DNA of 64,000 bases from Frankiaceae bacterium (GCA_019239875.1 JAFAZI010000047.1:39870-103869), one strand, 5' to 3'. Shown: positions 7,244-35,651, counted from the first letter of the stretch. Program-made: numbers and translations. The notes: a model not told the origin generated them from the sequence alone.

Positions 7244-8107
<864 letters not shown>

Positions 8108-15627: not shown

Positions 15628-15642
15628 TGCTCTACTGAGGGC

Positions 15643-19911: not shown

Positions 19912-19982
19912 CGATCCCCCGAGACGGCGAGGCCACCGGAGCGCATGTGCTCGCCCCAGCGGCCTCGCCTTGTCCGAATCGG

Positions 19983-21170: not shown

Positions 21171-21294
21171 CGGATCCCTTTCCGGGTGATGTCGAGGGGA
21201 CGATCCGCCCCGACGTTAGAGCGATCAGCAGGCATGTCCTGCCGGACCGTCGATGTGTTCATGTCGGCTTCATGCGGCGTGCACGACGTGGTCG

Positions 21295-22161: not shown

Positions 22162-23243
22162 GCGGGATCTCCTTGCGGCTGGGTCGCGGGTGGCGGGTCG
22201 ATCCGGTGCCGCCCCGCCTGGCGGCGATGTTTCCGCCACCAGTACCTGAAAGCCAACCCGACGATGAGGAGCAGGAGGATAAGGAGCAAGAGCCAAGGGA
22301 TGGCCAAGAAATGAACGCTGGATGAAGTGGGCTTCAAGCCGGTGTCGACCGCTCCCTGCAACCCTTCCGGGTTGACCGTGACCTTGGCGTTCATCAGCAG
22401 CTCTGGGTACACGTTCGGCACGGTGACGACAACGGGATACGACGCACCAGGCAGCAACGGGGGAATGCTCGCGACCGCCCCGCTGCTGACGTCCTCCCCG
22501 AACAGTCCGTGGACTGACACGGATTGCGGACCGCCGAAGACGACGTTCCCGCCGTTGTGGACCACGTAGCTGACCTTCACGTCACCGCGCGCGAACGGAT
22601 TGACCGGTCCGTCGTACGACGCCGTCAAGTTCCGGATGTCGACTCGAGGGTGGATCGGACCGGTCACGCGGAACACCGCGCGGACGGCGATGCGCTGCAG
22701 GAACTTCTCGTTCTGCGTGCTGCCCTGCCCGAACCGGCCTTTGACCTTGCCGGCGAGCGAGACCACGACGCCTCCGACATGGTCGCCCGGTGGCGCGTTC
22801 ATCGGGATGTGGACGTGTACCGGCAGGACGTTGACCGACCGCGGCTGCAGCGTGAGCACCCCACGACCGTGCGGGGTCCCCACCGACATCCAGGCACCGG
22901 CGTCCCGTCGCTTGACGTCGGGCAGCGGGAAGGAGATCGCGCCTCTGGTGTCAGGGACCGCGTCGACGGTGTACGTCGTCACCCGCAGCGGACGGTGGGA
23001 GTAGTTGGTGATCGCGACGTGGTCGGTCGTCTGGCCGCCGGGCGTGGTGTTGAACGTCAGGTACGGCCGGCCGTCGGGCCCCTTCGCACTCGACGGTGCG
23101 GCGCCGAAGGTCGCGTTCTTCACCTTGGTCGGTGACGAAGAAAAACGATGCCCCACGGGTCCGGCCGACGCTGCCGTCAGGCCTCCCATGAGCATCGTCA
23201 GTACGACGAGCGCAACCGATCGTCTGTAGTGCTTCAGTCCCAT
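22158..23243 (-). CDS. cell-surface protein with signal peptide and C-terminal TM anchor (possible CscA/DUF916-DUF3324-like)
   Basis: 361 aa; MGLKHYRRSVALVVLTMLMGGLTAASA signal; C-terminus LAIPWLLLLILLLLIVGLAFRYWWRKHRRQ. Size, architecture and neighbourhood (WxL-like paralogs, sorting-signal protein) resemble Gram-positive csc clusters. The family name is inferred, not demonstrated. Confidence 0.4.
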   Translation of the reverse strand: MGLKHYRRSVALVVLTMLMGGLTAASAGPVGHRFSSSPTKVKNATFGAAPSSAKGPDGRPYLTFNTTPGGQTTDHVAITNYSHRPLRVTTYTVDAVPDTRGAISFPLPDVKRRDAGAWMSVGTPHGRGVLTLQPRSVNVLPVHVHIPMNAPPGDHVGGVVVSLAGKVKGRFGQGSTQNEKFLQRIAVRAVFRVTGPIHPRVDIRNLTASYDGPVNPFARGDVKVSYVVHNGGNVVFGGPQSVSVHGLFGEDVSSGAVASIPPLLPGASYPVVVTVPNVYPELLMNAKVTVNPEGLQGAVDTGLKPTSSSVHFLAIPWLLLLILLLLIVGLAFRYWWRKHRRQAGRHRIDPPPATQPQGDPA

Positions 23244-23323: not shown

Positions 23324-25186
23324 TCAGTTCCCGTCTGAGACGGTGAAGACGATCGTGCCCTTGTAGGTGCCAGCAGCCGTCGACGTCGGTGCGTTGAGCG
23401 TCAGCTTGCCGTCGTAGGTAGCGGTACCGACGCCGTTCGCCGAACCCTGCAGCACGTTGTGGGCTCCGTTGCCGAGACCCGCGTTGCCGGTGTCGGACGG
23501 TGACACACCAGCAGCGGCCGTGTTGTCGGTCGCCGTGATCGAGCCAGGCTCGCCGGTGTAGCTGTTGACCGGAGTCGACCCGTCGGGGCAAGTGCCGGTC
23601 GACGGCGCGAGCGCCGTCAGGCCGACGTTCTCACCGTTGATCGACGTGTACGCACCGCTCGGCGGCGTCGGGCCACCAGACTGGAGCGACAGCGCACTGG
23701 CCGCAGCCTGCGCGATGAAGCCCGTGTTGACACCACTCGTGTCGGTCACCGTGATGCACTTGAACGTCTTGTTCCCGGTCCACAGGGTGCCGGTTCCGTT
23801 CAATGCGAGGTTGCCCAGGTCGAGCGGGTTCGCGTCCGTGTACGGGGTGCTGATGATCAGCGTTCCGGTCGGGATGCTTGCCGTGATCGTCTGGGTGTCC
23901 GTGCACCCCGGACCGCCCGCCGCCGCCTCGCTGGTGCAGACACCACCGGCGAGGACCGTGGTGAACGAGTTCGGCGCAGAGGCCGAGGCCTCGTAGTTCG
24001 CCGGGTTCGTCGGAGTGAAGTGAGCAACCACGGTGTGCGAACCGGCCGAGAAGCCACCGGTGATGGTCGCCGAGTAGTGACCGCTGCCGTCAACAGCAAC
24101 ACTCGAGCCGCCGTCGACTGGGAGTGCGGAACCCTTGTCCGTGAACGACACCGAGCCGTTCGGCGTGCCCGACCCTGAGGTCACGGCACCCGAGAGCGTT
24201 GCGGTTCCACCGGTCTGGGTGTTACCCGTGATCGTCAATGAGGTGTTGGTCGGGGTGGCCGGCGGGTTCACCGTCTGAGAGAGGGCGTTCGAGGTCGAGC
24301 CCGTGTAGTACGGGAAGACGGTGTTCGCGCTCGGGGTGTAGACGGCGGTGATGCTGTACGGCGAGCCCGACGCGGTCAGAGCTGACGTTGAGACCGACGC
24401 GTGGCCGGTGCCGTTCAGCGACTGTGCCGCACCAAGGTTGGCAGCGCCGTTCTTGAACTGCACGGTGCCGTCGGTCGGGTTGGTGCCGTCCGCGCCCGTC
24501 ACCTGCGTGGTGAAGGTCACCGAGTTGCCCTGGTTGGACGGGTTCGCCGACGAGGTCGGGGTCGAGGTGGTGGTCGCGATCGGCGAGCCGTAAACCTCGG
24601 TCCAGTCACCGCCGGTGACTGCGCCGCTGCCGTCCTTGGTGATGTTGCTGACCATGATGTCCGCGGCCCAGTACGTCCCCGTCGTGCCGGTCTTGACGCG
24701 GATCTGGTAGAGCCCGGCGTACCCGTCAGTGGTGCTGGTGTCGGTGTTCGGGAAGTCGCCGATGTACGTGGACAGCGGCAGGTCGGATCCAGCCCCGGTG
24801 ACGACCGGGTGGGTGCCCAGACCGTTCACCGGCGCGGGGGCGCTGGTGTTCGGGTAAGTGGTCGAGGCCGCTGCCTGCTCACCGCCCCAGGCACCTGGCG
24901 CGACACCAATCTGCGGCGTGTAGAAGAACTGCGTGGCCTTGGTGTGGCCGGCGTCAGTAGTAGAGGCCGCGTAGTAGGCCGCGAGCGGTCCGTCGGTGAC
25001 GTGACCGTGCGTGACTTGCTGGCCGCTCGAGTTGTAGAGGGTCAGCGTTCCGACCTGATTCGAGTCGGGGGTCGACTGGTACGGTGGCGTCGCTGCGTTG
25101 GCAGCACCCGCTCCCACCAGCAGCAACGCCCCGGTCGTGGCCAGGGTTGCCGCCCCGGCTGTGACCGCTGCGAAGCGGATCTTCAT
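23324..25186 (-). CDS. secreted surface protein, paralog A (two-Trp N-terminal domain + long Thr/Gly/Ser-rich Ig-like repeats)
   Basis: 620 aa; strong RBS AAGGGAGAA before ATG 25186; signal MKIRFAAVTAGAATLATTGALLLVGAGAANA; QVGTLTLYNSSGQQVTHGHVTD...GAWGGEQ...YQIRVKT...GGDWTEVY; C-terminal ...AGTYKGTIVFTVSDGN. Confidence 0.65.
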   Translation of the reverse strand: MKIRFAAVTAGAATLATTGALLLVGAGAANAATPPYQSTPDSNQVGTLTLYNSSGQQVTHGHVTDGPLAAYYAASTTDAGHTKATQFFYTPQIGVAPGAWGGEQAAASTTYPNTSAPAPVNGLGTHPVVTGAGSDLPLSTYIGDFPNTDTSTTDGYAGLYQIRVKTGTTGTYWAADIMVSNITKDGSGAVTGGDWTEVYGSPIATTTSTPTSSANPSNQGNSVTFTTQVTGADGTNPTDGTVQFKNGAANLGAAQSLNGTGHASVSTSALTASGSPYSITAVYTPSANTVFPYYTGSTSNALSQTVNPPATPTNTSLTITGNTQTGGTATLSGAVTSGSGTPNGSVSFTDKGSALPVDGGSSVAVDGSGHYSATITGGFSAGSHTVVAHFTPTNPANYEASASAPNSFTTVLAGGVCTSEAAAGGPGCTDTQTITASIPTGTLIISTPYTDANPLDLGNLALNGTGTLWTGNKTFKCITVTDTSGVNTGFIAQAAASALSLQSGGPTPPSGAYTSINGENVGLTALAPSTGTCPDGSTPVNSYTGEPGSITATDNTAAAGVSPSDTGNAGLGNGAHNVLQGSANGVGTATYDGKLTLNAPTSTAAGTYKGTIVFTVSDGN

Positions 25187-25321: not shown

Positions 25322-26500
25322 TCAGCAGCTGGTCGGGTTCAAGCCACAGTCCTTGTACGCGGGGTCCGCACCTGCCGCCGCGACGAGCGCTTGGCCCGGA
25401 GCGGTCTTGAAGTACGGGTTCGCGCCCGAGAACAAGGTCTGGATCATGTTCTTCGTGCCGCCCGGCTCGAAGATGGTCGACGAGGACAGGTCGCTCTGCT
25501 TGAACACCACGAACAGGCCGCGCGTGTCGATGTACGCGGATCCACCGGCCGGCGGAGCGCCGCTGAGGATCTTGATGCCGGCGGCCAACGCTGCGCCGCC
25601 GGGGTACGGCGTCGCAGGGTTGTGGAAGTAGCTGCTGTCGTAGAGGTTGAGCCGGCTTCCGGAGAACGGCGCGATGGCGTCCGCCGGCGTACCGAAGTTG
25701 CCACTCGTGATTGCGGACGGGTCGTTCTCCTCAGCGGTCTGCACGCAGCTGCCGAGGGTGATCGTGCCGCCGCCGGCGGTCTGCAGGTCGGTGATGAAGG
25801 TGCTGCGCGTACCCGAACCCGACTGCGGAATGATCGGCACGATGTTCGTGGCCGACGTGCCGCCGATGTTGGAGTCGTTCCACTTCCGGTAGCCCGCGTC
25901 GCACTGGTAGACGTGGAAGAGCTGCGCTGCCGTCAGCGGTACCGCGTTCGACCCCGTCTTGAGCGCTGCGAGGCGAAGGTCCTCGGTGCCGAGCCGCACG
26001 ACATGAAGCCCACCGAAACCAGCCGTGCCGGCGGTGGTCTCCTCGGCCGCAGTTGGGAGCCGCGAAGCGCGGACGAAGTTGATCTGTCCATCAGGGAACG
26101 CGGCGGTCGGCGCGTCATTCAGCAGCGCCGCGATGCCCGCACCGGAGCCGTTGGGACGCTGCACCGGGTTGGTGCCGGACCGCAGCACGATCGTGGGGTT
26201 GAGAGGTGCGAGGGAGGCGTTAGTGCTGCCGTTCAGGTAGCCCGCCCGAGCGTTGGCATCCGGCGTGGCATCGAAGCTCACCAGCTTGTTGATGGCGCCG
26301 CCGCCATTGAAGCCGAGGTCGCCCGTAGCGTCACCGTCGGCGCCGAAGTCGACGAGGTACTGCACCGTGTCGGACCCGACGCCCACTGCGTCGGCGCCCG
26401 AAGGTGCGTAGTCCGCGTGGGCCGGGGAGGCGAGTGAGACGCTCACCGCTCCCGCGACCGCGACTGCGAGACCGACTCGCAGCGAATTCTTCATGCGCAT
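25322..26500 (-). CDS. secreted PstS-family phosphate-binding protein (second copy)
   Basis: Signal peptide MRMKNSLRVGLAVAVAGAVSVSLASPAHA; type-2 periplasmic-binding fold with the phosphate-binding SGSGTR motif (IIPQSGSGTRSTFITDL). Confidence 0.65.
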   Translation of the reverse strand: MRMKNSLRVGLAVAVAGAVSVSLASPAHADYAPSGADAVGVGSDTVQYLVDFGADGDATGDLGFNGGGAINKLVSFDATPDANARAGYLNGSTNASLAPLNPTIVLRSGTNPVQRPNGSGAGIAALLNDAPTAAFPDGQINFVRASRLPTAAEETTAGTAGFGGLHVVRLGTEDLRLAALKTGSNAVPLTAAQLFHVYQCDAGYRKWNDSNIGGTSATNIVPIIPQSGSGTRSTFITDLQTAGGGTITLGSCVQTAEENDPSAITSGNFGTPADAIAPFSGSRLNLYDSSYFHNPATPYPGGAALAAGIKILSGAPPAGGSAYIDTRGLFVVFKQSDLSSSTIFEPGGTKNMIQTLFSGANPYFKTAPGQALVAAAGADPAYKDCGLNPTSC

Positions 26501-26565
26501 GTTTCTGCCTTTCGGAAGTCTTGGTGTGCGCCTGGCGAAACGACACTCGCCGACCGAAACCTCCG

Positions 26566-26587
26566 GCTAGTGCGTAGCGAATGAACC
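26566..26587 (-). promoter_or_regulatory. candidate PHO box (PhoP direct repeats GTTCACCGGGG/GTTCATTCGCT)
   Basis: Minus strand reads ...GACAAGTTCACCGGGGGTTCATTCGCTACGC... about 66-88 nt upstream of the PstS-like ATG: two 11-nt direct-repeat units with the actinobacterial PhoP core GTTCAyy. Confidence 0.5.
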
Positions 26588-26674
26588 CCCGGTGAACTTG
26601 TCGTGGCGGACACATCGAAACCGGACAAGGACGTCGAACCGGCGGACCGCTCCCGCACGCCCGGAAGGACGGCG

Positions 26675-27658
26675 TCACATCAGATTTGGGAGCAGCCTGA
26701 ACACGTTGCTGCTGACCACCCAGACCAACGCGAGAATCACGGGCGCTCCCGCAAGCCACGCCTGCCACAGACCCCACCGGCTGCTGGCCCAGACCGTTGC
26801 CCCGCCCACGATCAGCAACGCCTGAAGCCAGAGCACGAGCGACTCGAGACCGGATGTGTCGGAGTGCATCGCGGTGGCGGATGGCGCGATCACCGTCGGC
26901 CGGCCGGCTGGCGCGAGCAACGCCTTCTCCTTGAGCGCCGCATCCACGAAGACTTCGTGACTCGGTGCCCACCCGGCCCGCCAGCCGGAACCTTGGGATG
27001 AGACCAGGGTCAAGCGGCCGCCGCCATCCGGCACCGGCGGCGGCAGGGGGTCCCCGTTGTGCCTGACGTTTATGACGCTGTAGTGGAAGGTGCCCTGCTG
27101 CGTAGTCGCCGTGATGATGTCGCCCGGATGCAACGATCCGATGTCCTTGAAGGGTGCACCGAAGCTCACGCTTCGGCCCATGAGAACCGACCACCCAAGC
27201 TGACCCGGCAGCGGAGTGTTCTGCTGATGACCGGGACCGTCCCGAAGCACGGTCGACGTCGTGCCTTCCACGACGACCGCCCGGTTGAGCCCAGCCGCAG
27301 GCATGCTGATCACAGCTAATGGCGTGCCCGGTTTGATAGCACCCCCGAGCGGCGCGACCTCCTGCGCGAGCGAGAAGCGCAGCTGCGAGTAGAGCCTGTG
27401 CTGGGCGCTGCGCTCCTGAATACCGCTGAGGAACACGCCGTAGATCAGCAGCCAGACCGCGGTCACGCTCAGCATGAACAGCACGCTGACCGTGAGCGAA
27501 ACACCCGGCGAGGCCGGCGGGAGCGGTGGCGCCTCGCGGGCGGCGGCGAACCGAGTCCGGACCCGTGCGAGTCGCGACGCCGCGGCGGGCTCCGCTCGCC
27601 GCGCGCCGGACCGGGCAGGGGCCGGTCGACCAGGTTTTGCGAGGTCCGTAGCGGTCAT
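26675..27658 (-). CDS. sortase-fold membrane protein lacking catalytic Cys and His (class-E-sortase-like pseudo-sortase)
   Basis: N-terminal TM (VSLTVSVLFMLSVTAVWLLIYGVFL). The region IKPGTPLAVISMPAAGLNRAVVVEGTTSTVLRDGPGHQQNTPLPGQLGWSVLMGRSVSFGAPFKDIGSLHPGDIITATTQQGTFHYSV...RLTLVSSQGSG is collinear with the sortase-E consensus (IPxIGv..VveGt...LxkGpGHypxTxlPGqxGNsviaGHRTTyGAPFxxLdxLxxGDxI...TyxY...LTLvTCHP). The GHRTT His is replaced by Arg and the TLxTC Cys by Ser; the protein contains no Cys at all. Two extra C-terminal TM segments. ATG overlaps the upstream stop (ATGA). Confidence 0.6.
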   Translation of the reverse strand: MTATDLAKPGRPAPARSGARRAEPAAASRLARVRTRFAAAREAPPLPPASPGVSLTVSVLFMLSVTAVWLLIYGVFLSGIQERSAQHRLYSQLRFSLAQEVAPLGGAIKPGTPLAVISMPAAGLNRAVVVEGTTSTVLRDGPGHQQNTPLPGQLGWSVLMGRSVSFGAPFKDIGSLHPGDIITATTQQGTFHYSVINVRHNGDPLPPPVPDGGGRLTLVSSQGSGWRAGWAPSHEVFVDAALKEKALLAPAGRPTVIAPSATAMHSDTSGLESLVLWLQALLIVGGATVWASSRWGLWQAWLAGAPVILALVWVVSSNVFRLLPNLM

Positions 27659-30381
27659 GTCCTGCGTCGCTGGCGCACGTACCTGGTGATCGCCGGCGCC
27701 AACAAGCCGCTGAGGAGCGCAAGAGCGAGGAGGATGGGGAGCGCGACGCCGGCAAGCTTCGAGGAGCTCGCGACCGTGTTGCCCAGCGACGCCGGCGCTG
27801 GGGAGGCGACAGCAGGAGGGCTTGCTGGATCGCTGGGGCCTGGGGTGGCGGCGCCGTCGACTGCCGGCACAGTCGGAGCAGCCGACGACGGGGGCGACGA
27901 AGAGCTGCCCGTTCCATCTGGACCAGTGCCACCGTTGTTGCCGTCGTTCCCCTGGTTGTCGGCCTTCGACGGGACGAGCGATGGCACGTCACCACGCTGA
28001 GCTCGGACCGCGCTCGCCGCGCGCGTCGTGTACGCGACGAGCCGACCCAGTCCGTTCGACTTCGTCATCGGCAGATACCCAGGTGGCAAATTTCCTGGGT
28101 CGAAGCCCTGCGTCTGGCCGGGGCCGGCCGCGAAGTCGAGCAGCTTTGAGTAGTCCGTAGCGGCCGAGCTCGCAAGACCTTTGGTCGCAACGGTGGTGTA
28201 GACGATCATCGTGCCTGGATATGCGCCCTTCGCGGATGGTGCCTTGCGGAGCCGCTTCGAGTCGACGGGCCAGGTACCCGTCGTCATGTCCGGCTTCGCC
28301 GTGTCGGCAGCCGCCCGCATCGACGCCATCGTCGGCCGGACGAACGTGCGTCCGGCCAGGCTCGAGAAGTCGGACTTCGCGGCCGAGGTGGTCTGTGCCT
28401 CGAGTGACGCCATGCTGAGCCGATAGCGCTCAGCATCAGGAATGGTCGTCACGCCGAGCATGAACCGCGAGCCCAGCTGCTGGCGTCCGATGGCCACCAG
28501 CCGTTCACCCGAGCTCTGTCCCTGCAGCGGTTGGTAGCAGACGGTCTGCGAGTTCGCGATGGCGAACTGCATGGCCAGTGCGATCTGGCTCAGTCGCTGG
28601 ACCGGCGCTGCCACCAGCGGCAGGTATGGGACAGGGGTGTTGTAGAGGCAGTCGTTGAGTCCCGGCTGGTAGATGTCGGACGGAATGTATGTGTCGAGCA
28701 GCGGCCACGTGTTCACGGGGAGCTGGATGCGCTTGTAGGCCTTGTTGACCACCATCCCCCACGGGTCAGGTTTGCCGTCCAGCCATGCGCGAGCCTCGGG
28801 GTCGGCGTTGATGTAGGAGGTGAGGGCGTACATCACGTCTGACTGGCTGGAGAGGTTGAGGATCGTCGCACCGACTTGCGAGTCGGTGGTGACGCCGGGA
28901 TTGAGCGCCTCGAACTCTGGGTCGCGAGTGATGTTCAGCGGGTTCTTGGCAAGGGCCTTGTCCTTGTTCTGGATCTCGCTGATGGCCGGGTAGGACTCAG
29001 TCATCAGCTTCGCCAGCAACCGCGGATCGAGCTGGAGCTTGGTGACGGGGTCACCGTGAGCGTCGTCGATGTCGAAGGTGATCGCGAACCCGCTGACAGC
29101 GGTCGGCGCGTTGACCGTCGGGAACGGGAATCCCCCGGCCTGCGGCTGACTGGTGAAGGCTGCGTCGATCGAGCCCGACATCAGCTGAGTCCGAGCCTGC
29201 GGCTCGCCCACCTGAACGTGCTTGAAGTTGAACAGCGACTTCGTCAGGCAGAACTTCGGGGACCACTGTTGTGTGGCTTGCGTCATCAGCTCGGAGCCGT
29301 ACACGGGAACGGCCGCGCCCGCACCCACCACGTCGCAGACACTCGGCGTCTGCGCGAAGCTGAGTGGGACGGACAGCCGGTTCCGCCAGTTCGACGCGGC
29401 CCACCACAGCGCACCGCTCACCGTGGCGTCCTCGTGACCGTTCCCGTCACCAACCTCACCCGGTGCGAAGTGACCCTTCTTCACGCACTCGGCGGTGGCT
29501 TGCTCGATGTCGGGCGCTGGCGGCTTGTCGTCGTCCGGCAGCCCTTCGGCTGCGGGATCGCAGCTGATGCCCATGATCGGCACGGCGACCAGGCTGCACA
29601 CAACTCTTGCCGAGCAGCCCAATGACGTGTTCGTGTCCGCGGTCCACATGTCGAACTTCGTCGAACCCTGGCCGTTGGTCTGCGTGATGCCGTAGGTCTC
29701 GTTGCTCGGCATCGCCTGGTTGCTGTCACCGGTTGCCTCGGGCGCGGTGCCCGCGCAGCCGTTCGGCCCGCCGTAGTACTTGGTACCGCCAAGCGCGATG
29801 AAGGGGACCCAGTACTCCTCAGGCGCCGCGCCGAAACACTCCTCGGGCCTTGTTGTAGGCGCTCCGTACAGGGCGGATCGCTGTGCGGCCGAGGCGTACT
29901 TGTCCAGCCGCCACGGCGGGTAGGCCTGGTCGTTGCTCGCGTAGTTGGAATCGGACTGGAACCGCTCGGTGGTCGCGTTGGTCCAACAGGTCTGCGGCGA
30001 GAGTCGGTCGGCCTTGGGAGCGCGCTTCGAATCCAGGCCACGACACTCGAGCAGCACCATCGGATATTCCTCCTGCAGACCCAGGGAGGAGTTGATGTTT
30101 CCGACCAGACCGCCCGTCGGGTGCGCGCCGCTCCAGGACACGTCCACCTCTTGCCGATCGCGCAATCCCACCGTCTGAGCGACATGCAAGGAGACCTTGC
30201 GCTTGTCGACGACCGAGGTCGTGCCGTCCTTGGTTACGGTGCGGACAGCTGTGTGCTTGACGGTGACAGGCTTCAGATCGGCGTGCGATCGCCCGGGCGT
30301 TCCCGACGCGACACCTGTCGCAGCGGCGCCGACCGCCACCGCCGTCGCGGTGATAGCGGCCCAACGTTTTGTCAGTTTCAT
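27655..30381 (-). CDS. 909-aa secreted orphan protein, Cys-rich N-terminal region, C-terminal Ser/Pro-rich linker + TM anchor
   Basis: ATG 30381 overlaps the pstS stop (ATGA); signal peptide MKLTKRWAAITATAVAVGAAATGVASG; many paired Cys; C-terminus ...SSSPPSSAAPTVPAVDGAATPGPSDPASPPAVASPAPASLGNTVASSSKLAGVALPILLALALLSGLLAPAITRYVRQRRRT. No recognisable catalytic motif. Track ORF carries a 139-codon Arg-rich artefactual extension. Confidence 0.55.
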   Translation of the reverse strand: MKLTKRWAAITATAVAVGAAATGVASGTPGRSHADLKPVTVKHTAVRTVTKDGTTSVVDKRKVSLHVAQTVGLRDRQEVDVSWSGAHPTGGLVGNINSSLGLQEEYPMVLLECRGLDSKRAPKADRLSPQTCWTNATTERFQSDSNYASNDQAYPPWRLDKYASAAQRSALYGAPTTRPEECFGAAPEEYWVPFIALGGTKYYGGPNGCAGTAPEATGDSNQAMPSNETYGITQTNGQGSTKFDMWTADTNTSLGCSARVVCSLVAVPIMGISCDPAAEGLPDDDKPPAPDIEQATAECVKKGHFAPGEVGDGNGHEDATVSGALWWAASNWRNRLSVPLSFAQTPSVCDVVGAGAAVPVYGSELMTQATQQWSPKFCLTKSLFNFKHVQVGEPQARTQLMSGSIDAAFTSQPQAGGFPFPTVNAPTAVSGFAITFDIDDAHGDPVTKLQLDPRLLAKLMTESYPAISEIQNKDKALAKNPLNITRDPEFEALNPGVTTDSQVGATILNLSSQSDVMYALTSYINADPEARAWLDGKPDPWGMVVNKAYKRIQLPVNTWPLLDTYIPSDIYQPGLNDCLYNTPVPYLPLVAAPVQRLSQIALAMQFAIANSQTVCYQPLQGQSSGERLVAIGRQQLGSRFMLGVTTIPDAERYRLSMASLEAQTTSAAKSDFSSLAGRTFVRPTMASMRAAADTAKPDMTTGTWPVDSKRLRKAPSAKGAYPGTMIVYTTVATKGLASSAATDYSKLLDFAAGPGQTQGFDPGNLPPGYLPMTKSNGLGRLVAYTTRAASAVRAQRGDVPSLVPSKADNQGNDGNNGGTGPDGTGSSSSPPSSAAPTVPAVDGAATPGPSDPASPPAVASPAPASLGNTVASSSKLAGVALPILLALALLSGLLAPAITRYVRQRRRT

Positions 30382-32057
30382 ATCGAGTCCTTGGGCGGCG
30401 CGGTCCGCAGCCGGCGCGCCAGCATCGGCGGCCCAATCAGAATCAGCAGGAACAGAATCCCCGCCAGTGGCCCGAGCACGTCGGTGTTCTGCGAGGTTGG
30501 GATCTCGGTCGGTTGGGCCACGATGTTGGAGGTGTCCGTCGTCGTTCCACCCGGCGTGGTGTTGGTCGGGTTGGTCGGGTCGGCCACCTGACCCGGGTTC
30601 GTCGGATCGGTCTGCCCGCCGCCCCCTCCGGGAGTGGTCGGATTCGCGCCGCCGCCAGGATTGGTCGGGTTGGCACCACCACCGCCGCCGCCGGTGCCGC
30701 CGCCGTTTCCACCTCCGCCATTGCCGCCGTGGCCGCCGCCACCACTCGTCCCCGGGTCGCCGGCGTCGGTGCACGGGCCGGCACCAGCTTTGTCGCACGC
30801 CGGCGGCTTCGGTGCGATCTGCGCCAGGTGGTTGCCCTTCGGGTCACCCGGCACGAACGTGGGGTTGTGGCAGCTGTTGACGTTGCGCTTGGTGAGGTCA
30901 ACGCCGGAGTCGGCGGTCTTGAGCTCCGCAATCTGTTTGAAACCTGCCTGGACCAGGTTGACCGGGAGCGGTGAGTAGCCGATCGGGCCCATCTCGGTCT
31001 GCCCCGTGCAGATGGAGTAGAAGTCGAAGTCAGCGAGTGTCTGCCGTTTCGCCGTCGTCATGGTCTTGTCGTTCGACGCGATCGGAATGACTTGATAGGA
31101 GTACGACGACAGCGGGTAGGTGCGGACGTCCTTGTCGACGTACACGTTGTCGAGGTCCTGGAGCAGGTAGTCCTTCGAGTTCTTGTCGTAGTTGATCTTT
31201 GCCTTGAGCAGTGCGACGGCGACGTTGTACTGCGTGGGAAGCGTGAAGTAACCGGCCTTGTTCTCGATCTTCGCGACCGGGTAGTCCTTGCCCAAGGCGT
31301 AGGAGTACTCGTCGTAGCCGATGGCACCGTTGGCGGCCTTGGACGTGACGAAGTTCATCACGCCGTCGGAGCCATTCTGGGCGACCGCGTTCTTCACCTT
31401 CGATGCCGGAAAATACTCGGTGAGCTCGTCCAGGCCGTTGCCGTTCTGGTCCTTGTTGATAGAGGTCCACTCGTTCGGGAACTCGGTCGCGAGATAGCGC
31501 GTGAACTGTGCCGTCGAGCCCGAGCCCTCGGAGTGAACAACCGGAATGATCGGGATCGAGGGGAACTTGCGCCCGTTGTTGTCGGCGGTGATCTGTGGCG
31601 CGTTCCAGTTCGTGATCTTGCCGGTGAAGATTCCCGCCAACGTGGCCCCGGAGAGCCGGAGGTTGCGAACCAGCTGGCCCGCGACCTGGAGCTGGTACGG
31701 GAATGACGTACCGCCTGCGACGATCGGTAGATACGCGTACCCGCGTCCATCTGGTGAGTCGTCCGCGTTGGTGGCCGGATCCCGACCTTGGAACCCGATG
31801 TCGGTCACTGCGAAGTCGTTCTGCCGATTCGCGAAGTCCTTGCGGCCCTGCGCCGAACCGCTCGACGTGAAGACGACCTGCAGACCTTGTGATTGGACGT
31901 CCGCGATCCACTGGTTCACGGCGTTGGCACTCCAGCTCGAACCCGAGCCGGCGATCAACGCATGGCTGCCAGCCGCCTGGGCGGGTGTCGTCGCGCCGAT
32001 CGCCAGGCCGGCGACGGCGAGCGCCGCCAGGGCACGCCAGAAGGGGTTTCGCGTCAT
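30378..32057 (-). CDS. pstS: phosphate ABC transporter substrate-binding protein with C-terminal Gly-rich linker and TM anchor
   Basis: Non-lipoprotein signal peptide MTRNPFWRALAALAVAGLAIGATTPAQA|AGS; PstS fold with IIPVVHSEGSGSTAQFTRYL (SGSGT motif); C-terminus GGGGHGGNGGGGNGGGTGGGGGGANPTNPGGGANPTTPGGGGG...LGPLAGILFLLILIGPPMLARRLRTAPPKDSI; ATG overlaps the pstA stop (ATGA). Confidence 0.8.
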   Translation of the reverse strand: MTRNPFWRALAALAVAGLAIGATTPAQAAGSHALIAGSGSSWSANAVNQWIADVQSQGLQVVFTSSGSAQGRKDFANRQNDFAVTDIGFQGRDPATNADDSPDGRGYAYLPIVAGGTSFPYQLQVAGQLVRNLRLSGATLAGIFTGKITNWNAPQITADNNGRKFPSIPIIPVVHSEGSGSTAQFTRYLATEFPNEWTSINKDQNGNGLDELTEYFPASKVKNAVAQNGSDGVMNFVTSKAANGAIGYDEYSYALGKDYPVAKIENKAGYFTLPTQYNVAVALLKAKINYDKNSKDYLLQDLDNVYVDKDVRTYPLSSYSYQVIPIASNDKTMTTAKRQTLADFDFYSICTGQTEMGPIGYSPLPVNLVQAGFKQIAELKTADSGVDLTKRNVNSCHNPTFVPGDPKGNHLAQIAPKPPACDKAGAGPCTDAGDPGTSGGGGHGGNGGGGNGGGTGGGGGGANPTNPGGGANPTTPGGGGGQTDPTNPGQVADPTNPTNTTPGGTTTDTSNIVAQPTEIPTSQNTDVLGPLAGILFLLILIGPPMLARRLRTAPPKDSI

Positions 32058-33169
32058 CGCTTGGTCTTCTCCCGAGAGAGCAGTCGAGCCGCGATGAACA
32101 GGACGACGACGAGCACGAGCAGGACGCTGGCAGCGCCAAAACCTCGAGTGATGTACGTCGGTTCACCGCTGCGGACAGAGCTGAAGATGAACAACGGAAG
32201 CGAGTTCATCGGATTCTTGAGGGGGTTCGTGTTGAAGAAGGTGGAGGCGCCCGAGGTGATCAGAACGGGTGCGGTTTCACCGACAGCTCGGGCGAGGCCG
32301 AGGATCACTGCAGTCGCGAGTCCGGACCGCGCGGTCGGAAGCACGACGCGCCAGACCGTTGCCCATCGGCTGGCGCCAAGCGCAAGACTCGCTTCACGGA
32401 GACCGCCCGCCACCACCCGCAGCGAGACATCCGCCGAGCGGGCGATGATCGGCAGCATCATGATCGACAGCGCCATCGCCGCGCAGAAGCCGTTGCGCTG
32501 AAAGCCGAGCCCGAGCTGCAACACCGTGTAGATGAACAGCCCAGCGAGGATGTCCGGCAGCGCTGTCATCGCCTCCACGACGGTTCGCACCACCGTCGAG
32601 AACCGGCCACCGATCTCCACCATGTAGATCGCGGTTCCAATGCCGAGTGGCAAAGAGACTGCGGTGGCGATCGCAAGCTCGATCAGCGACCCCGCCACCG
32701 CATGCGTGATGCCACCGTGGGTGAGGGTCTCCGTCGGACCGACCCCCGCCATGTCATGGGTCCAGAAGTTGCCGTGGATCCATGCACCCTCGCCCTTGAC
32801 GAGGGTGTAGATCGCTACCGAGAGGACCGCGAAGAACACCACGCCTGCTGCGCCTGCGACGGCGGCGCCCCAGAGCCGGTCGACCACCACCGGGCGAGGG
32901 TTGCCGAAGCTGCTGACCAGGCCGTACACAGCAAGGAACGCGGCGTACCAGCAGAAGAGGAAGCCAACCTTCCCGGACAGCGGCAGCAGCTGGAAGTACA
33001 CGAGCCAGGTGAGCGCCAGCGAGCCGACGAAAGCGGCAACCAGTGATGCGATGTCGTCCTGCGTCAACCGGCCGACGGTGCGGGGCTGGTCGTCTGCACC
33101 ATCCGGATGGCTCGGGTTGACGCCCGTGCCCGATGTACCCGGCATCGGCGGCGGCGAGAGCAGTGTCAT
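32054..33169 (-). CDS. pstA: phosphate ABC transporter permease PstA
   Basis: 371 aa, 6 TM; ABC permease EAA-like region (LGASRWATVWRVVLPTARSGLATAVILGLARAVGETAPVL). Confidence 0.85.
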   Translation of the reverse strand: MTLLSPPPMPGTSGTGVNPSHPDGADDQPRTVGRLTQDDIASLVAAFVGSLALTWLVYFQLLPLSGKVGFLFCWYAAFLAVYGLVSSFGNPRPVVVDRLWGAAVAGAAGVVFFAVLSVAIYTLVKGEGAWIHGNFWTHDMAGVGPTETLTHGGITHAVAGSLIELAIATAVSLPLGIGTAIYMVEIGGRFSTVVRTVVEAMTALPDILAGLFIYTVLQLGLGFQRNGFCAAMALSIMMLPIIARSADVSLRVVAGGLREASLALGASRWATVWRVVLPTARSGLATAVILGLARAVGETAPVLITSGASTFFNTNPLKNPMNSLPLFIFSSVRSGEPTYITRGFGAASVLLVLVVVLFIAARLLSREKTKR

Positions 33170-33176
33170 GACGGCA

Positions 33177-34196
33177 TCACGCGTCCGTCTGCGCGCCGCT
33201 GCGGCTGCGGTTGACGATTATCGCGGCAACGGTGTTCACGGCGATCGTCATGACGAACAGGACGAAGCCGGCCGCGAGCAGAGCTGACAGCTGCGACGAA
33301 GACGCGTCGTTGAACTGGTTCGCGATCAGCGACGCGACGGTGATGCCACCGATCTCGAGCGGCTTGAACTTCAGGTCGTACTCCGGCGAGATGATCAGGA
33401 GCACGGCCACCGTCTCGCCCAGCGCACGGCCGAGCGCAAGCATCGTCCCGCCGATGATGCCGCCGCGACCGAACGGCAGCACGACGGACCGGATCATCCC
33501 CCAGCGCGTCGAGCCGAGGGCGTAGGCAGCCTCACGTTCCCCGATCGGCGCCTGCGCGAAGACGCCACGCATGACAGCGCAGGCCATCGGGATGACCATC
33601 ATCGAGACGATCAACGCCGCGATGAACGGCGAACTGACGTAGTTGTGCGCCGAGAAGGCCGCGGCCCGCGGGTCCGTGTCGACCTTCAGGAACGGCACCC
33701 AACCGAAGTAGGAGTTGATCCAGCGGGCGACGTACAGCGCATGCGGTGAGATCAGCAGCAAGCCCCACAGGCCATAGATGATGCTCGGCACCGCAGCCAT
33801 CAGGTCGACGAGGGCGACCAGCGTCCCCTTGAGCCAGTTCGGCGCGTACTCGCTGATGTAGACGGCGGTGCCGAGAGCAAGCGGGAACGAGATCGCCAGC
33901 GCGATCACGGCGATCTCGATCGTGCCGACGACGACACCTGAGATCCCCAGCAGGTTCTGCTCGGGGTTCCACACCGCCCGGGTGAAGAAACCCAGCCCGT
34001 AGTTGTGGAGCGTCGGGATCAGCTGATACCCGAGGAACAGCCCGATGGCACCGGTGATGACGAGTACGACGGCACCAACCCCTGTGGCGCTCACCTGAAA
34101 GACCCGGTCGGAGCCTCCGATGCCGGAGCCGAGCGAACGAGGTTTGTCGTCGTCCGGCAGAGGTGACGCCGGCGAGACGTCGGCTACTGCGGTCAT
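33177..34196 (-). CDS. pstC: phosphate ABC transporter permease PstC
   Basis: 339 aa; (YALGSTRWGMIRSVVLPFGRGGIIGGTMLALGRALGETVAVLLI). Confidence 0.85.
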   Translation of the reverse strand: MTAVADVSPASPLPDDDKPRSLGSGIGGSDRVFQVSATGVGAVVLVITGAIGLFLGYQLIPTLHNYGLGFFTRAVWNPEQNLLGISGVVVGTIEIAVIALAISFPLALGTAVYISEYAPNWLKGTLVALVDLMAAVPSIIYGLWGLLLISPHALYVARWINSYFGWVPFLKVDTDPRAAAFSAHNYVSSPFIAALIVSMMVIPMACAVMRGVFAQAPIGEREAAYALGSTRWGMIRSVVLPFGRGGIIGGTMLALGRALGETVAVLLIISPEYDLKFKPLEIGGITVASLIANQFNDASSSQLSALLAAGFVLFVMTIAVNTVAAIIVNRSRSGAQTDA

Positions 34197-34211
34197 TCCT
34201 GATGGGTCCCG

Positions 34212-35060
34212 CTACCCGAACCGGCCGTTGACGTAGTCCGAGGTCCGCTGGTCGCGCGGCCGCTCGAAGATGTCTCGGGTCGGGCCGGACTCGACGATCA
34301 CGCCCGGGGTCCCTTGCTCCGCGAGGAAGAAGGCGCACTGCTGGGAGACCCGTGCGGCCTGCTGCATGTTGTGGGTGACGATGACGATGGTGACCTGGTC
34401 GCGAAGCATCGCGATGGTCTCTTCGATCCGCCGCGTGGAGGTCGGGTCGAGCGCCGAGCACGGCTCGTCCATCAGCAGGACGTCCGGACTGACCGCGAGC
34501 GAGCGCGCGATGCACAGCCGCTGCTGCTGTCCACCTGACAGCGCGCCGCCAGGGCGGTCGAGCCGGTCCTTGACCTCTGCCCACAGCCCACCCCGCTGTA
34601 GACAGTCCTCGATCAGTGCCTCCTTGGCACTTCGGCTGACCTTCGCGCCGGTCAGTTTCAGTCCGGCGACCACGTTCTCGGCGATGCTCATCGCGGGAAA
34701 CGGGTTCGGCTTCTGAAAGACCATGCCGATGCGCTTGCGGGTCTCGGTGATCCGCTGGCCGGGCGCGTAGATGTCTTGACCGTTGAGCTGGACCTCGCCG
34801 GCGAGTTTCGCGCTCGGCACGGACTCGTGCATGCGGTTGAGGATCCGCAGGAACGTGGACTTGCCGCATCCGGACGGACCGATCAGCGCGCTCACCGTGC
34901 CGGGCGGCATCGACAGCGACACGCGGTCGAGGACCTTGTTGGTGCCGAACCATGCCGAGATGTTGACCGCGTCGAGCTGCGCGCCGGTCGGGTCTCGCTC
35001 CGGCTCGGGCTCCTCGAGCCGCGCCAGGTCGATGGTCGGCGGCGGGGCGATGGTCGTCAT
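34212..35060 (-). CDS. pstB: phosphate ABC transporter ATP-binding protein PstB
   Basis: Start at ATG 35060 (MTTIAPPPTIDLARLEEPE...); Walker A GPSGCGKST, signature LSGGQQQRLCIARSLAV, Walker B LLMDEP; track ORF 18 codons longer. Confidence 0.9.
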   Translation of the reverse strand: MTTIAPPPTIDLARLEEPEPERDPTGAQLDAVNISAWFGTNKVLDRVSLSMPPGTVSALIGPSGCGKSTFLRILNRMHESVPSAKLAGEVQLNGQDIYAPGQRITETRKRIGMVFQKPNPFPAMSIAENVVAGLKLTGAKVSRSAKEALIEDCLQRGGLWAEVKDRLDRPGGALSGGQQQRLCIARSLAVSPDVLLMDEPCSALDPTSTRRIEETIAMLRDQVTIVIVTHNMQQAARVSQQCAFFLAEQGTPGVIVESGPTRDIFERPRDQRTSDYVNGRFG

Positions 35061-35533
35061 CAGATCTCCCTGGTCAGAGCTGGGCCGGTCACAGGTTCGA
35101 CTGCCATCTGCCACGAGCGGGGTGGTTCACCGTTCGCGACCTCGGCGATGGCGGCTGCGGCCGCGAAAGCCGCCACGTTGTAGGTGCATTCGCGGTGGCG
35201 GGCGTAGCCGCGGCTCGATGTCGCGACTGCCAGCCCCTCCAGAAACAGTCGCCAGCCCCAGGTGGTCGTGTGGGGCACGGTGAGGATGTGAGCCTCCGCA
35301 TCGACGATTCGATCCCGGAGCAGCTCGGCGTGTTCGCGGGCATGGACGAGATCGGGGAACACCCTCGGGCTGCGACCGAGCTCGCGGTGGTTGGCGCCGG
35401 TGAGTCGCCAGGCGACCCAGGAACCATCCGCATTGAGCTCTCCCTCGAACTGTTGGTGCACGTCGGGCCACACCGGATGCGCCTCCGGGCCACGACCCAC
35501 GCCGACGACGAAAAGGAACCGCGGCGGCTTCAC
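35060..35533 (-). CDS. tandem DUF1508 (YegP-like) repeat protein, first gene of the pst operon
   Basis: GTG 35533 after RBS GGAGGGGGA; two internal repeats DGSWVAWRLTGANHRELGRSPRVF...AREHAELL and TTTWGWRLFLEGLAVATSSRGYARHRECTYNVAAFAAAAA match the YegP/DUF1508 pattern (W.[FW]RL...NGE.ia.S..Y.s...a..gi..v); stop overlaps the pstB ATG (ATGA). Confidence 0.5.
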   Translation of the reverse strand: MKPPRFLFVVGVGRGPEAHPVWPDVHQQFEGELNADGSWVAWRLTGANHRELGRSPRVFPDLVHAREHAELLRDRIVDAEAHILTVPHTTTWGWRLFLEGLAVATSSRGYARHRECTYNVAAFAAAAAIAEVANGEPPRSWQMAVEPVTGPALTREI

Positions 35534-35618
35534 CCGTCCCCCTCCTCGTCCTCCCCACCGCACGAGACGTTCGTCGGCTCCGTCAACGACAACTGATCTA
35601 CGACGCCACGGAGCGCAC

Positions 35619-35651
35619 GCAGGCCGAACGGCAGATGAGCGAAAGATGAAC
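35619..35651 (-). promoter_or_regulatory. candidate PHO box (three 11-nt direct-repeat units) upstream of the DUF1508-pstBCAS operon
   Basis: Minus strand TTGTTGTTCATCTTTC-GCTCATCTGCC-GTTCGGCCTGC, about 86 nt upstream of GTG 35533, in the divergent intergenic region shared with the alpha/beta hydrolase gene. Confidence 0.4.

What the first reader, a model, noticed from the sequence alone, without database searches (positions are those of the whole stretch)
25322..35651. Atypical, fully translationally coupled phosphate-uptake operon (DUF1508, pstB, pstC, pstA, pstS) that continues into an orphan 909-aa surface protein, a cysteine-less sortase homolog and a second PstS
Seven consecutive minus-strand genes are joined by ATGA start/stop overlaps or gaps of 15 bp or less: DUF1508-pstB ATGA, pstB-pstC gap of 15 bp, pstC-pstA gap of 7 bp, pstA-pstS ATGA, pstS-909aa ATGA, 909aa-sortase-like ATGA. 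A second secreted PstS-like gene follows 174 bp downstream behind its own PHO-box-like direct repeats (GTTCACCGGGG GTTCATTCGCT). A three-unit PHO-like repeat lies upstream of the first gene. Canonical operons are pstSCAB and M. tuberculosis has pstB-pstS-pstC-pstA; here the binding protein is last among the transporter genes and is physically coupled to non-transport genes. This suggests a phosphate-starvation-induced cell-surface module of unknown function that is co-translated with the Pi transporter.
Basis: partly seen in the sequence, partly recalled or inferred. Interest (0 to 1): 0.85.

Follow-up and report, generated by a model that had tools for sequence, protein, structure and literature searches.

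The report
Phosphate transporter operon with dead sortase
A phosphate-type uptake operon in a soil actinobacterium is fused, gene to gene, to a giant phosphate-binding-protein look-alike and a sortase that has lost all its catalytic residues. The same unstudied package turns up in at least 321 species-representative genomes and probably forms a phosphate-starvation surface apparatus.

Summary
The gene chain is real. On the minus strand, orfX, pstB, pstC, pstA, pstS-like, a 908-aa protein and a sortase-like gene are joined by overlaps or gaps of 15 nt or less. A secreted PBP_like_2 gene follows, and PHO-box-like 11-nt repeats precede both transcription units.

- "DUF1508" has no support.

The sortase homologue has the sortase fold but lacks His, Cys and Arg across 71 relatives, so it is a pseudo-sortase.

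The order pstBCA, pstS, 908-aa, pseudo-sortase holds in all 80 loci examined. The loci come from two classes, Actinomycetes and Acidimicrobiia, and include cultured Nocardioides. The 4-nt overlaps are conserved, two natural 908-aa/pseudo-sortase fusions exist, and PHO boxes sit upstream in relatives. A WxL-interacting/Ig-like surface gene set travels with the cluster.

Best reading: a Pho-regulated Pst-type importer with a non-catalytic surface module made in fixed ratio with it. The ligand and mechanism are inferred, not shown. I found nothing on it in the searched literature. I rate it a new variant of a known kind, interest about 0.65.

The parts
35619..35651 (-). Three 11-nt PHO-box-like direct repeat units (GTTCATCTTTC GCTCATCTGCC GTTCGGCCTGC). 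The first base lies 118 nt upstream of the orfX GTG.
   Evidence: Sequence read. Pattern statistics. Consensus GG/TTCAYYYRG/CG from PMC2275107. Similar sites lie upstream of orfX/pstB in relatives.
35060..35533 (-). orfX, a small cytoplasmic protein of about 157 aa. The likely start is GTG 35533, after a GGAGG-rich stretch. Function unknown. It is present upstream of pstB in only about 20 of 80 related loci.
   Evidence: No Pfam, NCBIfam or PDB match; DUF1508 not confirmed.
34212..35060 (-). pstB-type ABC ATPase (282 aa). Its start overlaps the orfX stop by 1 nt (TGATG).
   Evidence: TIGR00972 333.8 bits against a cut-off of 343.2; Pfam ABC_tran.
33177..34196 (-). pstC permease (339 aa).
   Evidence: TIGR02138 239.5 bits, above the cut-off of 196.45. 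Several hydrophobic segments predicted.
32054..33169 (-). pstA permease (371 aa).
   Evidence: TIGR00974 200.6 bits, above the cut-off of 193.45.
30378..32057 (-). PstS-like binding protein (559 aa). It has a signal peptide, a PstS domain, a Gly/Thr/Pro-rich linker of about 130 aa, a C-terminal TM helix (527-545) and a basic tail.
   Evidence: PBP_like_2 at 5.6e-32; TIGR00975 172.9 bits, below the cut-off of 205. PDB PstS hits at 2e-22. Pocket residues and their covariation. Tail and linker.
27655..30381 (-). 908-aa surface protein. It has a signal peptide, a family-specific Cys-rich beta domain (about 35-340), a PstS-fold domain (about 340-800) whose anion pocket is replaced by invariant E364/E393/D515, a Pro/Ser linker, a juxtamembrane motif (LG.T...AG), a TM helix (876-894) and an Arg-rich tail.
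26675..27658 (-). Pseudo-sortase (327 aa). It has an N-terminal TM helix, a sortase beta-barrel without the catalytic His/Cys/Arg, and a conserved C-terminal two-helix membrane hairpin (RWG..Q.W...LLPN).
   Evidence: Pfam Sortase 44.3 bits; class E sortase model 64.7 bits against a cut-off of 160. PDB alignments. Family columns. AF2 pLDDT 87.6. Foldseek hits are all sortases.
26576..26597 (-). Two PHO-box-like direct repeat units (GTTCACCGGGG GTTCATTCGCT), 97 nt upstream of the PBP_like_2 start.
   Evidence: The same kind of site lies about 95-100 nt upstream of the homologous gene in 19 related loci.
25322..26500 (-). Secreted PBP_like_2 protein (392 aa) with no membrane anchor. Conserved motifs are GSDT, NGSGAG and PQSGSGTR.
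   Evidence: Pfam PBP_like_2 at 2.1e-12. Family motifs and partial hhalign match to PstS. Conserved next to the cluster in 52 loci.
23324..25186 (-). Secreted 620-aa protein with Big_3_5 Ig-like domains and a conserved C-terminal beta domain.
   Evidence: Pfam Big_3_5 at 6.2e-17. Homologues flank the cluster in most loci.
22158..23243 (-). 361-aa protein with a WxL-interacting-protein peptidoglycan-binding-like domain and a C-terminal TM anchor.
   Evidence: WxLIP_PGBD 25.9 bits against a cut-off of 27.3 in the window. Four of 10 homologues pass the cut-off. Conserved in 36 loci. TM 312-330.
19186..22296 (-). Three further surface-protein genes. 21295-22296 is TM-anchored. 19983-21170 has Big_3_5 plus a Lys-rich C-terminus. 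19186-20175 probably starts at ATG 19911 and ends in MPMTG + TM + RRRK, which resembles a sorting signal. The first two share the N-terminal domain of the 620-aa protein.
   Evidence: The domain sharing was judged by eye.

Best explanation
This is a phosphate-starvation (PhoP-type) regulated, Pst-type ABC importer that carries a dedicated, non-catalytic cell-surface module.

Shown:
- PstB, PstC and PstA are ordinary Pst-type transporter parts.
- The binding protein PstS-like is tethered to the membrane by a C-terminal helix through a flexible linker of about 130 residues, not by a lipid anchor.
- Its pocket keeps most phosphate-contacting residues. It always keeps exactly one Asp, which moves from position 56 to position 38 in one subtype. 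Arg135 is replaced by His or Gln.
- The next two genes are made in fixed ratio with it through ATGA overlaps. One is a 908-aa membrane-anchored protein whose core is a PstS fold with an acidic pocket, which does not look able to bind an anion. The other is a membrane protein with a sortase fold that has lost His, Cys and Arg.

Inferred:
- The dead sortase keeps its peptide-binding groove. It holds the sorting-signal-like juxtamembrane segment of the 908-aa protein non-covalently, forming a stable membrane complex. Natural fusions of the two proteins support this pairing.
- That complex works beside PstCAB with the co-regulated secreted PBP_like_2 protein and the WxL-interacting/Ig-like wall-associated proteins. 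Together they would capture phosphate, or a phosphate-bearing compound, at or within the cell wall and pass it to the tethered PstS-like protein for import.
For: Operon anatomy and coupling:
- in the window.
- 4-nt overlaps are conserved: pstS-to-908aa in 65/75 loci; 908aa-to-sortase-like in 43/74 loci, plus 24 other overlaps.
- The same overlaps appear in cultured Nocardioides conyzicola.

Synteny:
- pstB/C/A, pstS, 908aa and sortase-like sit on one strand in all 80 loci, from Actinomycetes and Acidimicrobiia.
- In the Nocardioidaceae-type loci (MAGs labelled Marmoricola sp. or Nocardioidaceae), pstB lies after the surface genes. This ties the whole set together.

Physical link: two natural 908aa/pseudo-sortase fusion proteins have a consistent membrane topology.

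Pho control:
- PHO-like 11-nt repeats lie before both units.
- All five GTTCA-N6-GTTCA sites of the window lie inside the extended cluster.
- The sites are conserved in position in relatives.
- The consensus comes from PMC2275107.

Transporter identity.

PstS-like pocket.

Pseudo-sortase:
- The His position is R54/K17.
- The Cys position is S36/A29/T4/G2.
- The Arg position is variable.
- The fold is retained.

Surface gene set conserved alongside.
Against: - There are no expression, binding or interaction data of any kind. Pho control rests on sequence motifs only.
- PstS-like and PstB score below the curated equivalog cut-offs, and Arg135 is never present, so the ligand may not be orthophosphate.
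I could not inspect the model coordinates.
- The proposed groove-tail interaction is untested. The juxtamembrane motif only loosely resembles LAxTG.
- I could not check whether these genomes also carry a canonical pstSCAB.
Confidence: 0.5

Rival explanations
1. The 908-aa/pseudo-sortase pair and the wall-associated proteins are co-regulated with the transporter but do a different job during phosphate starvation. Examples would be remodelling or guarding the cell envelope, or binding metal ions or wall polymers. They would not take part in solute delivery.
For: - The 908-aa pocket is acidic and so unlikely to bind phosphate.
- WxL-interacting-type proteins are known as wall-associated surface complex parts in Firmicutes (PMC1534035, listed).
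- The surface genes have their own PHO-like sites and intergenic gaps.
Against: - The 4-nt overlap between pstS and the 908-aa gene is kept in 65/75 loci.
- pstB is placed after the surface genes in one lineage. This argues for one functional unit rather than mere co-regulation.
- The core of the 908-aa protein is specifically PstS-like, not a generic binding-protein fold.
Confidence: 0.22
2. The transporter imports something other than orthophosphate, such as phosphite, a phosphonate, an organophosphate or another oxyanion. The three PstS-fold proteins would be specialised receptors for it.
For: - PstS-like (172.9 vs 205) and PstB (333.8 vs 343.2) miss the equivalog cut-offs.
- Arg135 is always His or Gln, and Thr141 is variable.
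- Two pocket subtypes coexist in single genomes, which suggests diversified specificity.
Against: - PstC and PstA pass the phosphate-specific cut-offs.
- Every listed pocket combination with positions 38 and 56 resolved carries exactly one acidic residue there: Asp at one or the other, or Glu at 56 in four. A single Asp is the hallmark of protonated phosphate recognition in E. coli PstS (the role of Asp56 is from my own knowledge of the PstS literature).
- PHO boxes are present.
Confidence: 0.15
3. The sortase homologue is still an enzyme. It would use Ser in place of Cys and covalently attach the 908-aa and/or PstS-like proteins to the wall through their C-terminal signal-like tails.
For: - The window protein has Ser at the Cys position (LTLVSS), as do 36 of 71 relatives.
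- Both candidate substrates end in motif + hydrophobic helix + basic tail.
Against: - The position is Ala, Gly or Thr in 35 of 71 relatives, so no nucleophile is conserved.
- The catalytic His is always Arg or Lys, and the catalytic Arg column is variable.
- Fusions keep the two proteins in one chain, which does not fit cleavage and transfer.
Confidence: 0.06
4. Chance juxtaposition of a pst operon with unrelated surface genes, or decaying gene remnants.
For: None found.
Against: - Relatives of the 908-aa protein in 321 species-representative genomes, with the gene order kept in the 80 loci examined.
- Mean column identity of 52% for the 908-aa family across two classes.
- Conserved overlaps.
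Confidence: 0.01

Closest known systems
PstSCAB high-affinity phosphate ABC importer (E. coli, Streptomyces), and the multi-PstS pst loci of Mycobacterium tuberculosis
   Same: - PstB, PstC and PstA homologues.
- A PstS-fold binding protein with most phosphate-contacting residues.
- PHO-box-like operators.
- Several PstS paralogues at one locus, as in M. tuberculosis (from my own knowledge).
   Different: - The gene order is B-C-A-S, with the binding protein last.
- The binding protein is anchored by a C-terminal helix on a long linker, not by a lipobox.
- Arg135 is replaced by His or Gln.
- No phoU was seen next to the operon.
- Two extra translationally coupled genes follow, and a conserved surface-protein set travels with the cluster.
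Class E (and D/F) sortases of Actinobacteria, such as Streptomyces SrtE (5go5, 5cuw) and C. diphtheriae SrtF (5uus)
   Same: - N-terminal membrane helix plus an eight-stranded sortase barrel.
- Shared VEGT, GPGH, LPGQxG and GxPF motifs.
- 31% identity to 5go5, TMt 0.70.
- Public pipelines name it "class E sortase" or "sortase A".
   Different: - Catalytic His, Cys and Arg are all absent family-wide.
- It scores 64.7 bits against a cut-off of 160 for the class E model.
- It has an extra conserved C-terminal two-helix membrane hairpin.
- It is always encoded after a PstS-fold giant in a pst operon.
WxL / Csc cell-surface complex gene clusters of Firmicutes (CscA DUF916, CscB/C WxL, CscD LPXTG; PMC1534035)
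   Same: - A DUF916/WxLIP_PGBD-like protein with a C-terminal membrane anchor.
- It lies next to secreted multi-domain surface proteins and a small protein with a sorting-signal-like end.
   Different: - No WxL domain was detected by Pfam.
- The phylum is different.
- The genes are linked to a Pst-type transporter and PHO-like operators rather than to carbohydrate genes.
Membrane-tethered or fused substrate-binding domains of Gram-positive and archaeal ABC importers (from my own knowledge)
   Same: The binding protein is held at the membrane by a protein segment, close to its transporter.
   Different: Here a second PstS-fold protein that probably does not bind an anion, plus a dead sortase, are added in fixed ratio. 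This is not known for any such system in the literature I could search.

Membership tests
PstSCAB phosphate ABC transporter | PstC and PstA permeases reach the curated equivalog scores | tested here: met
   TIGR02138 239.5 vs 196.45; TIGR00974 200.6 vs 193.45.
PstSCAB phosphate ABC transporter | PstB ATPase reaches the curated equivalog score | tested here: not met
   TIGR00972 333.8 vs 343.2. It is the best hit by far but just under the cut-off.
PstSCAB phosphate ABC transporter | PstS binding protein reaches the equivalog score and has the canonical pocket (T10, S38, D56, R135, S139, G140, T141) | tested here: not met
   TIGR00975 172.9 vs 205. In the window the pocket reads S10, S38, D56, H135, S139, G140, S141. 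R135 is never Arg in 73 relatives. The fold and most contacts are kept.
PstSCAB phosphate ABC transporter | Binds and imports orthophosphate | not testable with these tools
   Needs ITC and uptake assays.
Pho regulon (PhoP/PHO box, actinobacterial type) | Tandem 11-nt direct repeats matching GG/TTCAYYYRG/CG upstream of the genes | tested here: met
   Sites at 35651-35619 and 26597-26576. They are conserved in position in relatives. Consensus from PMC2275107.
Pho regulon (PhoP/PHO box, actinobacterial type) | PhoP binding and induction at low phosphate | not testable with these tools
   Needs EMSA or ChIP, and RNA-seq.
Sortase superfamily | Sortase beta-barrel fold / Pfam Sortase domain | tested here: met
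   PF04203 44.3 bits vs 26.6, though only profile positions 1-83 of 125. Foldseek top 50 hits are all sortases, TMt up to 0.76.
Sortase superfamily | Catalytic His-Cys-Arg triad (TLxTC motif) | tested here: not met
   His is replaced by Arg/Lys (71/71). Cys is replaced by Ser/Ala/Thr/Gly (71/71). The Arg column is variable.
Class E sortase (NF033747) | Reaches the curated subfamily score | tested here: not met
   64.7 bits vs 160.
WxL/Csc surface complex cluster | DUF916 / WxLIP_PGBD protein with a C-terminal anchor | tested here: inconclusive
   The window protein scores 25.9 vs 27.3. Four of 10 homologues pass at 28.6-42.8 bits.
WxL/Csc surface complex cluster | WxL-domain proteins | tested here: not met
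   No WxL Pfam hit in the 620-aa or neighbouring proteins.
DUF1508 (YegP-like), as claimed for the first gene | Match to the Pfam DUF1508 model | tested here: not met
   No hit at E<=5 in Pfam. No NCBIfam or PDB hit.

The most novel reading that the evidence does not exclude
The sortase fold has been re-used as a non-catalytic receptor, a pseudo-sortase. It would clasp a degenerate sorting signal on a giant PstS-fold protein whose anion site has turned acidic. Together with a tethered PstS, a secreted PBP and wall-associated Ig-like/WxL-interacting proteins, it would form a wall-spanning phosphate-harvesting apparatus. The package is present in two classes of Actinomycetota. It would be the first described pseudo-sortase and a new type of accessory machinery for an ABC importer.
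Probability: 0.3. Interest if true: 0.8.

Novelty: new variant of a known kind. Interest (0 to 1): 0.65.

Why it matters
Phosphate acquisition limits growth of soil and freshwater Actinomycetota. This locus is present in at least 321 species-representative genomes, including abundant uncultured lineages (Acidimicrobiia, Nanopelagicales, Frankiales). I found nothing about it in the searched literature.

It contains what appears to be an undescribed class of catalytically dead sortases. Public pipelines currently name them "sortase A" or "class E sortase", so databases overstate sortase activity in these organisms.

If the pseudo-sortase docks a degenerate sorting signal, it shows how a transpeptidase-substrate pair can evolve into a structural pair. 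If the surface module feeds the transporter, it is a new way for monoderm bacteria to harvest a scarce nutrient through the wall.

Cultured carriers exist (Nocardioides conyzicola, N. hankookensis, Nocardioides sp. Root1257, Solihabitans fulvus), so the ideas can be tested directly.

Tried and rejected
- DUF1508 for the first gene: no Pfam hit at E<=5, no NCBIfam hit, no PDB hit. Rejected as unsupported.
- "Orphan" status of the large protein: rejected.
- Internal terminator or promoter between pstS and the downstream genes: the genes overlap. The consensus scan found no promoter-like sites and no more terminator-like sites than shuffles (5 vs 6.2 expected). This is uninformative for high-GC actinobacterial promoters.
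- AlphaFold-database fold search: the library was unavailable.
- Sequence search of the secreted PBP_like_2 protein against the PDB: no hits. hhalign to PstS aligned only the SGSGT loop region.
- Literature: searches for pseudo-sortase, inactive sortase, sortase+pseudoenzyme, WxL+PstS+sortase, and PstS+sortase+Actinobacteria found nothing on this locus.
- An active Ser-sortase was considered and rejected, because the position is not conserved.


Full report
**Observation.**
The minus strand between 35533 and 26675 carries seven consecutive ORFs:

| Gene | Coordinates | Notes |
|---|---|---|
| orfX | 35060-35533 | likely GTG start after a GGAGG-rich stretch |
| pstB | 34212-35060 | |
| pstC | 33177-34196 | |
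| pstA | 32054-33169 | |
| pstS-like | 30378-32057 | 559 aa |
| large protein | 27655-30381 | 908 aa |
| sortase-like | 26675-27658 | 327 aa, no Cys at all |

- A PBP_like_2 gene (25322-26500) follows after 174 nt.
- Pfam and NCBIfam confirm PstC and PstA above their curated cut-offs. PstB falls just below (333.8 vs 343.2) and PstS clearly below (172.9 vs 205).
- The sortase-like protein scores 44.3 bits on Pfam Sortase, covering profile positions 1-83 of 125. On the class E sortase model it scores 64.7 bits against a cut-off of 160.
- orfX matches nothing. DUF1508 is not detected in Pfam even at E<=5, and there is no PDB match.

**PHO boxes.**
- Upstream of orfX lie three 11-nt units, GTTCATCTTTC GCTCATCTGCC GTTCGGCCTGC (35651-35619). 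Upstream of the PBP_like_2 gene lie two, GTTCACCGGGG GTTCATTCGCT (26597-26576).
- They fit the Streptomyces PhoP operator: 11-nt direct repeat units with consensus GG/TTCAYYYRG/CG, and GTTCAY in most units (PMC2275107; PMC7866108).
- GTTCAYN5GYTCAY occurs only at these two places in the 64-kb window, against 0.02 expected. I derived that pattern from the two sites, so the statistic is post hoc.
- With the looser GTTCA-N6-GTTCA (one mismatch allowed), all five sites of the window fall between 20949 and 35651.
- In 80 related loci, the same kind of site lies about 95-100 nt upstream of the PBP_like_2 homologue in 19 loci. It also lies upstream of orfX/pstB and of some Ig-like genes. In all, 37 of 113 sites across 1.4 Mb lie within 350 nt upstream of a cluster gene.
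- This is phylogenetic footprinting in favour of Pho control. It is not proof.

**The large protein is not an orphan.**
- It has 1052 homologues with E<=0.001, and only the 8000 best word-sharing candidates were scored.
- tblastn-confirmed relatives occur in 321 species-representative genomes. They are mostly MAGs of Mycobacteriales/Frankiales, Acidimicrobiia, Nanopelagicales, Nocardioidaceae, Pseudonocardiales and Streptosporangiaceae.
- Mean column identity across 62 members is 52%, with ten invariant cysteines in the N-terminal third.
- Residues about 340-800 are therefore a PstS fold with large insertions.

| E. coli PstS | 908-aa protein |
|---|---|
| T10 | E364 |
| S38 | E393 |
| D56 | S411 |
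| R135 | L510 |
| G140 | D515 |
| T141 | V516 |

- E393 and D515 are invariant and E364 nearly invariant (90% or more) in the 62-sequence alignment. The anion pocket therefore appears to have been replaced by an acidic one.
- The N-terminal domain (about 35-340) occurs only in this family. It has 297 representatives among 1.84 billion proteins, always at the N-terminus of roughly 900-aa proteins or fragments.
- The C-terminus is a Pro/Ser linker, then a conserved juxtamembrane segment ([LP]G.T.[GA]..S..AG, often SLGRTLG), then a TM helix and an Arg-rich tail.

**The sortase homologue is a pseudo-enzyme.**
- PDB sequence searches align it to class D/E/F sortases at 5e-11 as a single sequence and 3.6e-19 as a family profile.
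- The catalytic His of the GHR motif aligns to Arg162. The catalytic Cys of TLxTC aligns to Ser221 (LTLVSS). The catalytic Arg of S. avermitilis SrtE aligns to a variable column, Glu235 in the window.
- In 71 homologues taken from the related loci, the His column is R54/K17, the Cys column is S36/A29/T4/G2, and the Arg column is V/L/A/T.
- Other sortase motifs are kept: VEGT, GPGH, LPGQxG, GxPF.
- The model (pLDDT 87.6) has an N-terminal TM helix, the sortase barrel, and a conserved C-terminal two-helix membrane hairpin (RWG..Q.W...LLPN) that ordinary class E sortases lack. Its Foldseek hits are all sortases, with 31% identity to 5go5.
- Public annotation calls these proteins "sortase A" or "class E sortase". 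One hit is identical to the window over the aligned 81% of the query (266 aa) and comes from a Frankiaceae bacterium MAG, which identifies the source of the window.

**Comparative genomics.**
- I ran tblastn of the window proteins against 80 loci with 10-kb flanks. The order pstB-pstC-pstA-pstS-908aa-sortase-like is on one strand in every locus where the contig reaches.
- The PBP_like_2 gene and the Ig-like (Big_3_5) genes follow the pseudo-sortase in one arrangement, which is the window's. In a second arrangement they precede pstB.
- In Nocardioidaceae-type loci, pstB sits after the surface genes. This ties the whole set into one unit.
- The pstS-to-908aa 4-nt overlap is present in 65 of 75 loci. 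The 908aa-to-pseudo-sortase 4-nt overlap is present in 43 of 74, with 24 further overlaps. The gap before the PBP_like_2 gene exceeds 60 nt in 35 of 44.
- Cultured Nocardioides conyzicola carries pstC-pstA-PstS(555)-P916-sortase(306)-PBP(404)-213aa-Big3-pstB with the same overlaps, followed by a second tandem copy.
- Two natural fusion proteins (P0049 at 1214 aa, P0055 at 1211 aa) join the 908-aa protein to the pseudo-sortase through TM, a cytoplasmic linker and a second TM. This is topologically consistent and keeps the His-to-Arg and Cys-to-Ala states.

**The PstS-like binding protein.**
- PDB PstS proteins align at 2e-22.
- Against E. coli numbering, the window protein has S10, W11, S38, D56, H135, E137, S139, G140, S141.
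- Position 135 is never Arg across 73 relatives (H49, Q20).
- Two pocket states covary. One is S38-D56-H135. The other is D38-S/A56-Q135, in all 19 cases with D38. Every listed combination with both positions resolved carries one acidic residue there: Asp at one or the other, or Glu at 56 in four.
- From the PstS literature (my own knowledge), Asp56 is the acceptor that selects protonated phosphate over sulfate. A relocated Asp therefore argues for a working pocket that recognises a phosphate-like ligand.
- The two states track the two gene arrangements and can coexist in one MAG (L005/L011, L042/L075).
- The protein has no lipobox. It is tethered by a C-terminal helix after a Gly/Thr/Pro-rich linker of about 130 residues.

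**Extended locus.**
Downstream, on the same strand, lie:
- a secreted 620-aa Big_3_5 protein (23324-25186);
- a 361-aa protein with a WxL-interacting-protein PG-binding-like domain and a C-terminal anchor (22158-23243). It scores 25.9 bits vs 27.3 in the window; four of 10 homologues pass the cut-off; it is conserved in 36 loci;
- three more surface proteins, down to about 19186. One ends in MPMTG + helix + RRRK.

This resembles the WxL/Csc surface-complex clusters of Firmicutes (PMC1534035), but no WxL domain is detected.

**Interpretation.**
- Shown: a conserved, translationally coupled Pst-type operon that includes a tethered PstS-like protein, a PstS-fold giant with an altered pocket, and a catalytically dead sortase. 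It has PHO-like operators and a co-travelling surface gene set.
- Inferred: Pho induction; phosphate or a phosphate-bearing compound as the ligand; a non-covalent complex in which the pseudo-sortase groove holds the juxtamembrane segment of the 908-aa protein; and a role for the surface module in capturing substrate in or beyond the wall for hand-off to the tethered PstS-like protein.
- Rivals, ranked below this reading: a co-regulated but transport-independent envelope function; a non-phosphate ligand; and an active Ser-sortase. The last is disfavoured because no nucleophile is conserved. Chance juxtaposition is excluded.

**Novelty.**
Full-text searches found no description of this locus or of catalytically inactive sortases. 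The transporter core is a known kind, while the coupled PstS-fold giant and pseudo-sortase pair is new to it. I file it as a new variant of a known kind, with interest about 0.65. It is widespread, unstudied and testable in cultured Nocardioides, but the mechanism is still inferred.

Noticed in passing
L005 vs L011 (one Frankiaceae MAG); L042 vs L075 (one Mycobacteriales MAG): Two subtypes of the whole cluster coexist in single genomes. One has PstS pocket S38-D56-H135 with the surface genes downstream. The other has D38-S/A56-Q135 with the surface genes upstream of pstB. This suggests diversified specificity.
   Followed up: partly
L081 3426-20921 (Nocardioides conyzicola BAABKM010000002.1): A cultured species carries two tandem copies of the cluster. 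In the first copy pstB is the last gene, after the Big_3_5 gene.
   Followed up: partly
window 20949, 21257, 22327 (plus 26597 and 35651): All five GTTCA-N6-GTTCA sites (one mismatch allowed) of the 64-kb window lie inside the extended cluster. Three are near or inside the downstream surface-protein genes.
   Followed up: partly
window 23324-25186, 21295-22296, 19983-21170: Three surface proteins share an unassigned N-terminal domain of about 190 aa (TPP..GTLTLY..G.QVT.G...). This was judged by eye. The 395-aa protein ends in Lys-rich repeats that are also seen in relatives.
   Followed up: no
window 19186-19911: A small Ig-like protein ends in MPMTG + hydrophobic helix + RRRK, which resembles a genuine sorting signal. 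Neighbours in relatives end in LPHTG or LARTG. A true sortase substrate therefore sits beside a dead sortase.
   Followed up: no
window 7239-7424 (+): c-di-AMP (ydaO-type) riboswitch, 67.7 bits against a gathering score of 38.
   Followed up: no
window 5310-5406 (-), 5481-5569 (+), 11122-11211 (-): Small SRP RNA and two tRNA-Ser genes with anticodons GGA and CGA.
   Followed up: no
window 12989-16278: By eye from the translations: sulfite-reductase-like (12989-14662, minus strand), PAPS-reductase-like (14878-15627, plus strand) and CbiX-like (15643-16278, plus strand) genes, an apparent sulfur-assimilation cluster. A coiled-coil NlpC/P60-like hydrolase lies at 16623-17822. None of these was tested with family models.
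   Followed up: no
window 26675-27658 and homologues P0121-P0240: Public pipelines name every member of this catalytically dead family "sortase A" or "class E sortase".
   Followed up: yes
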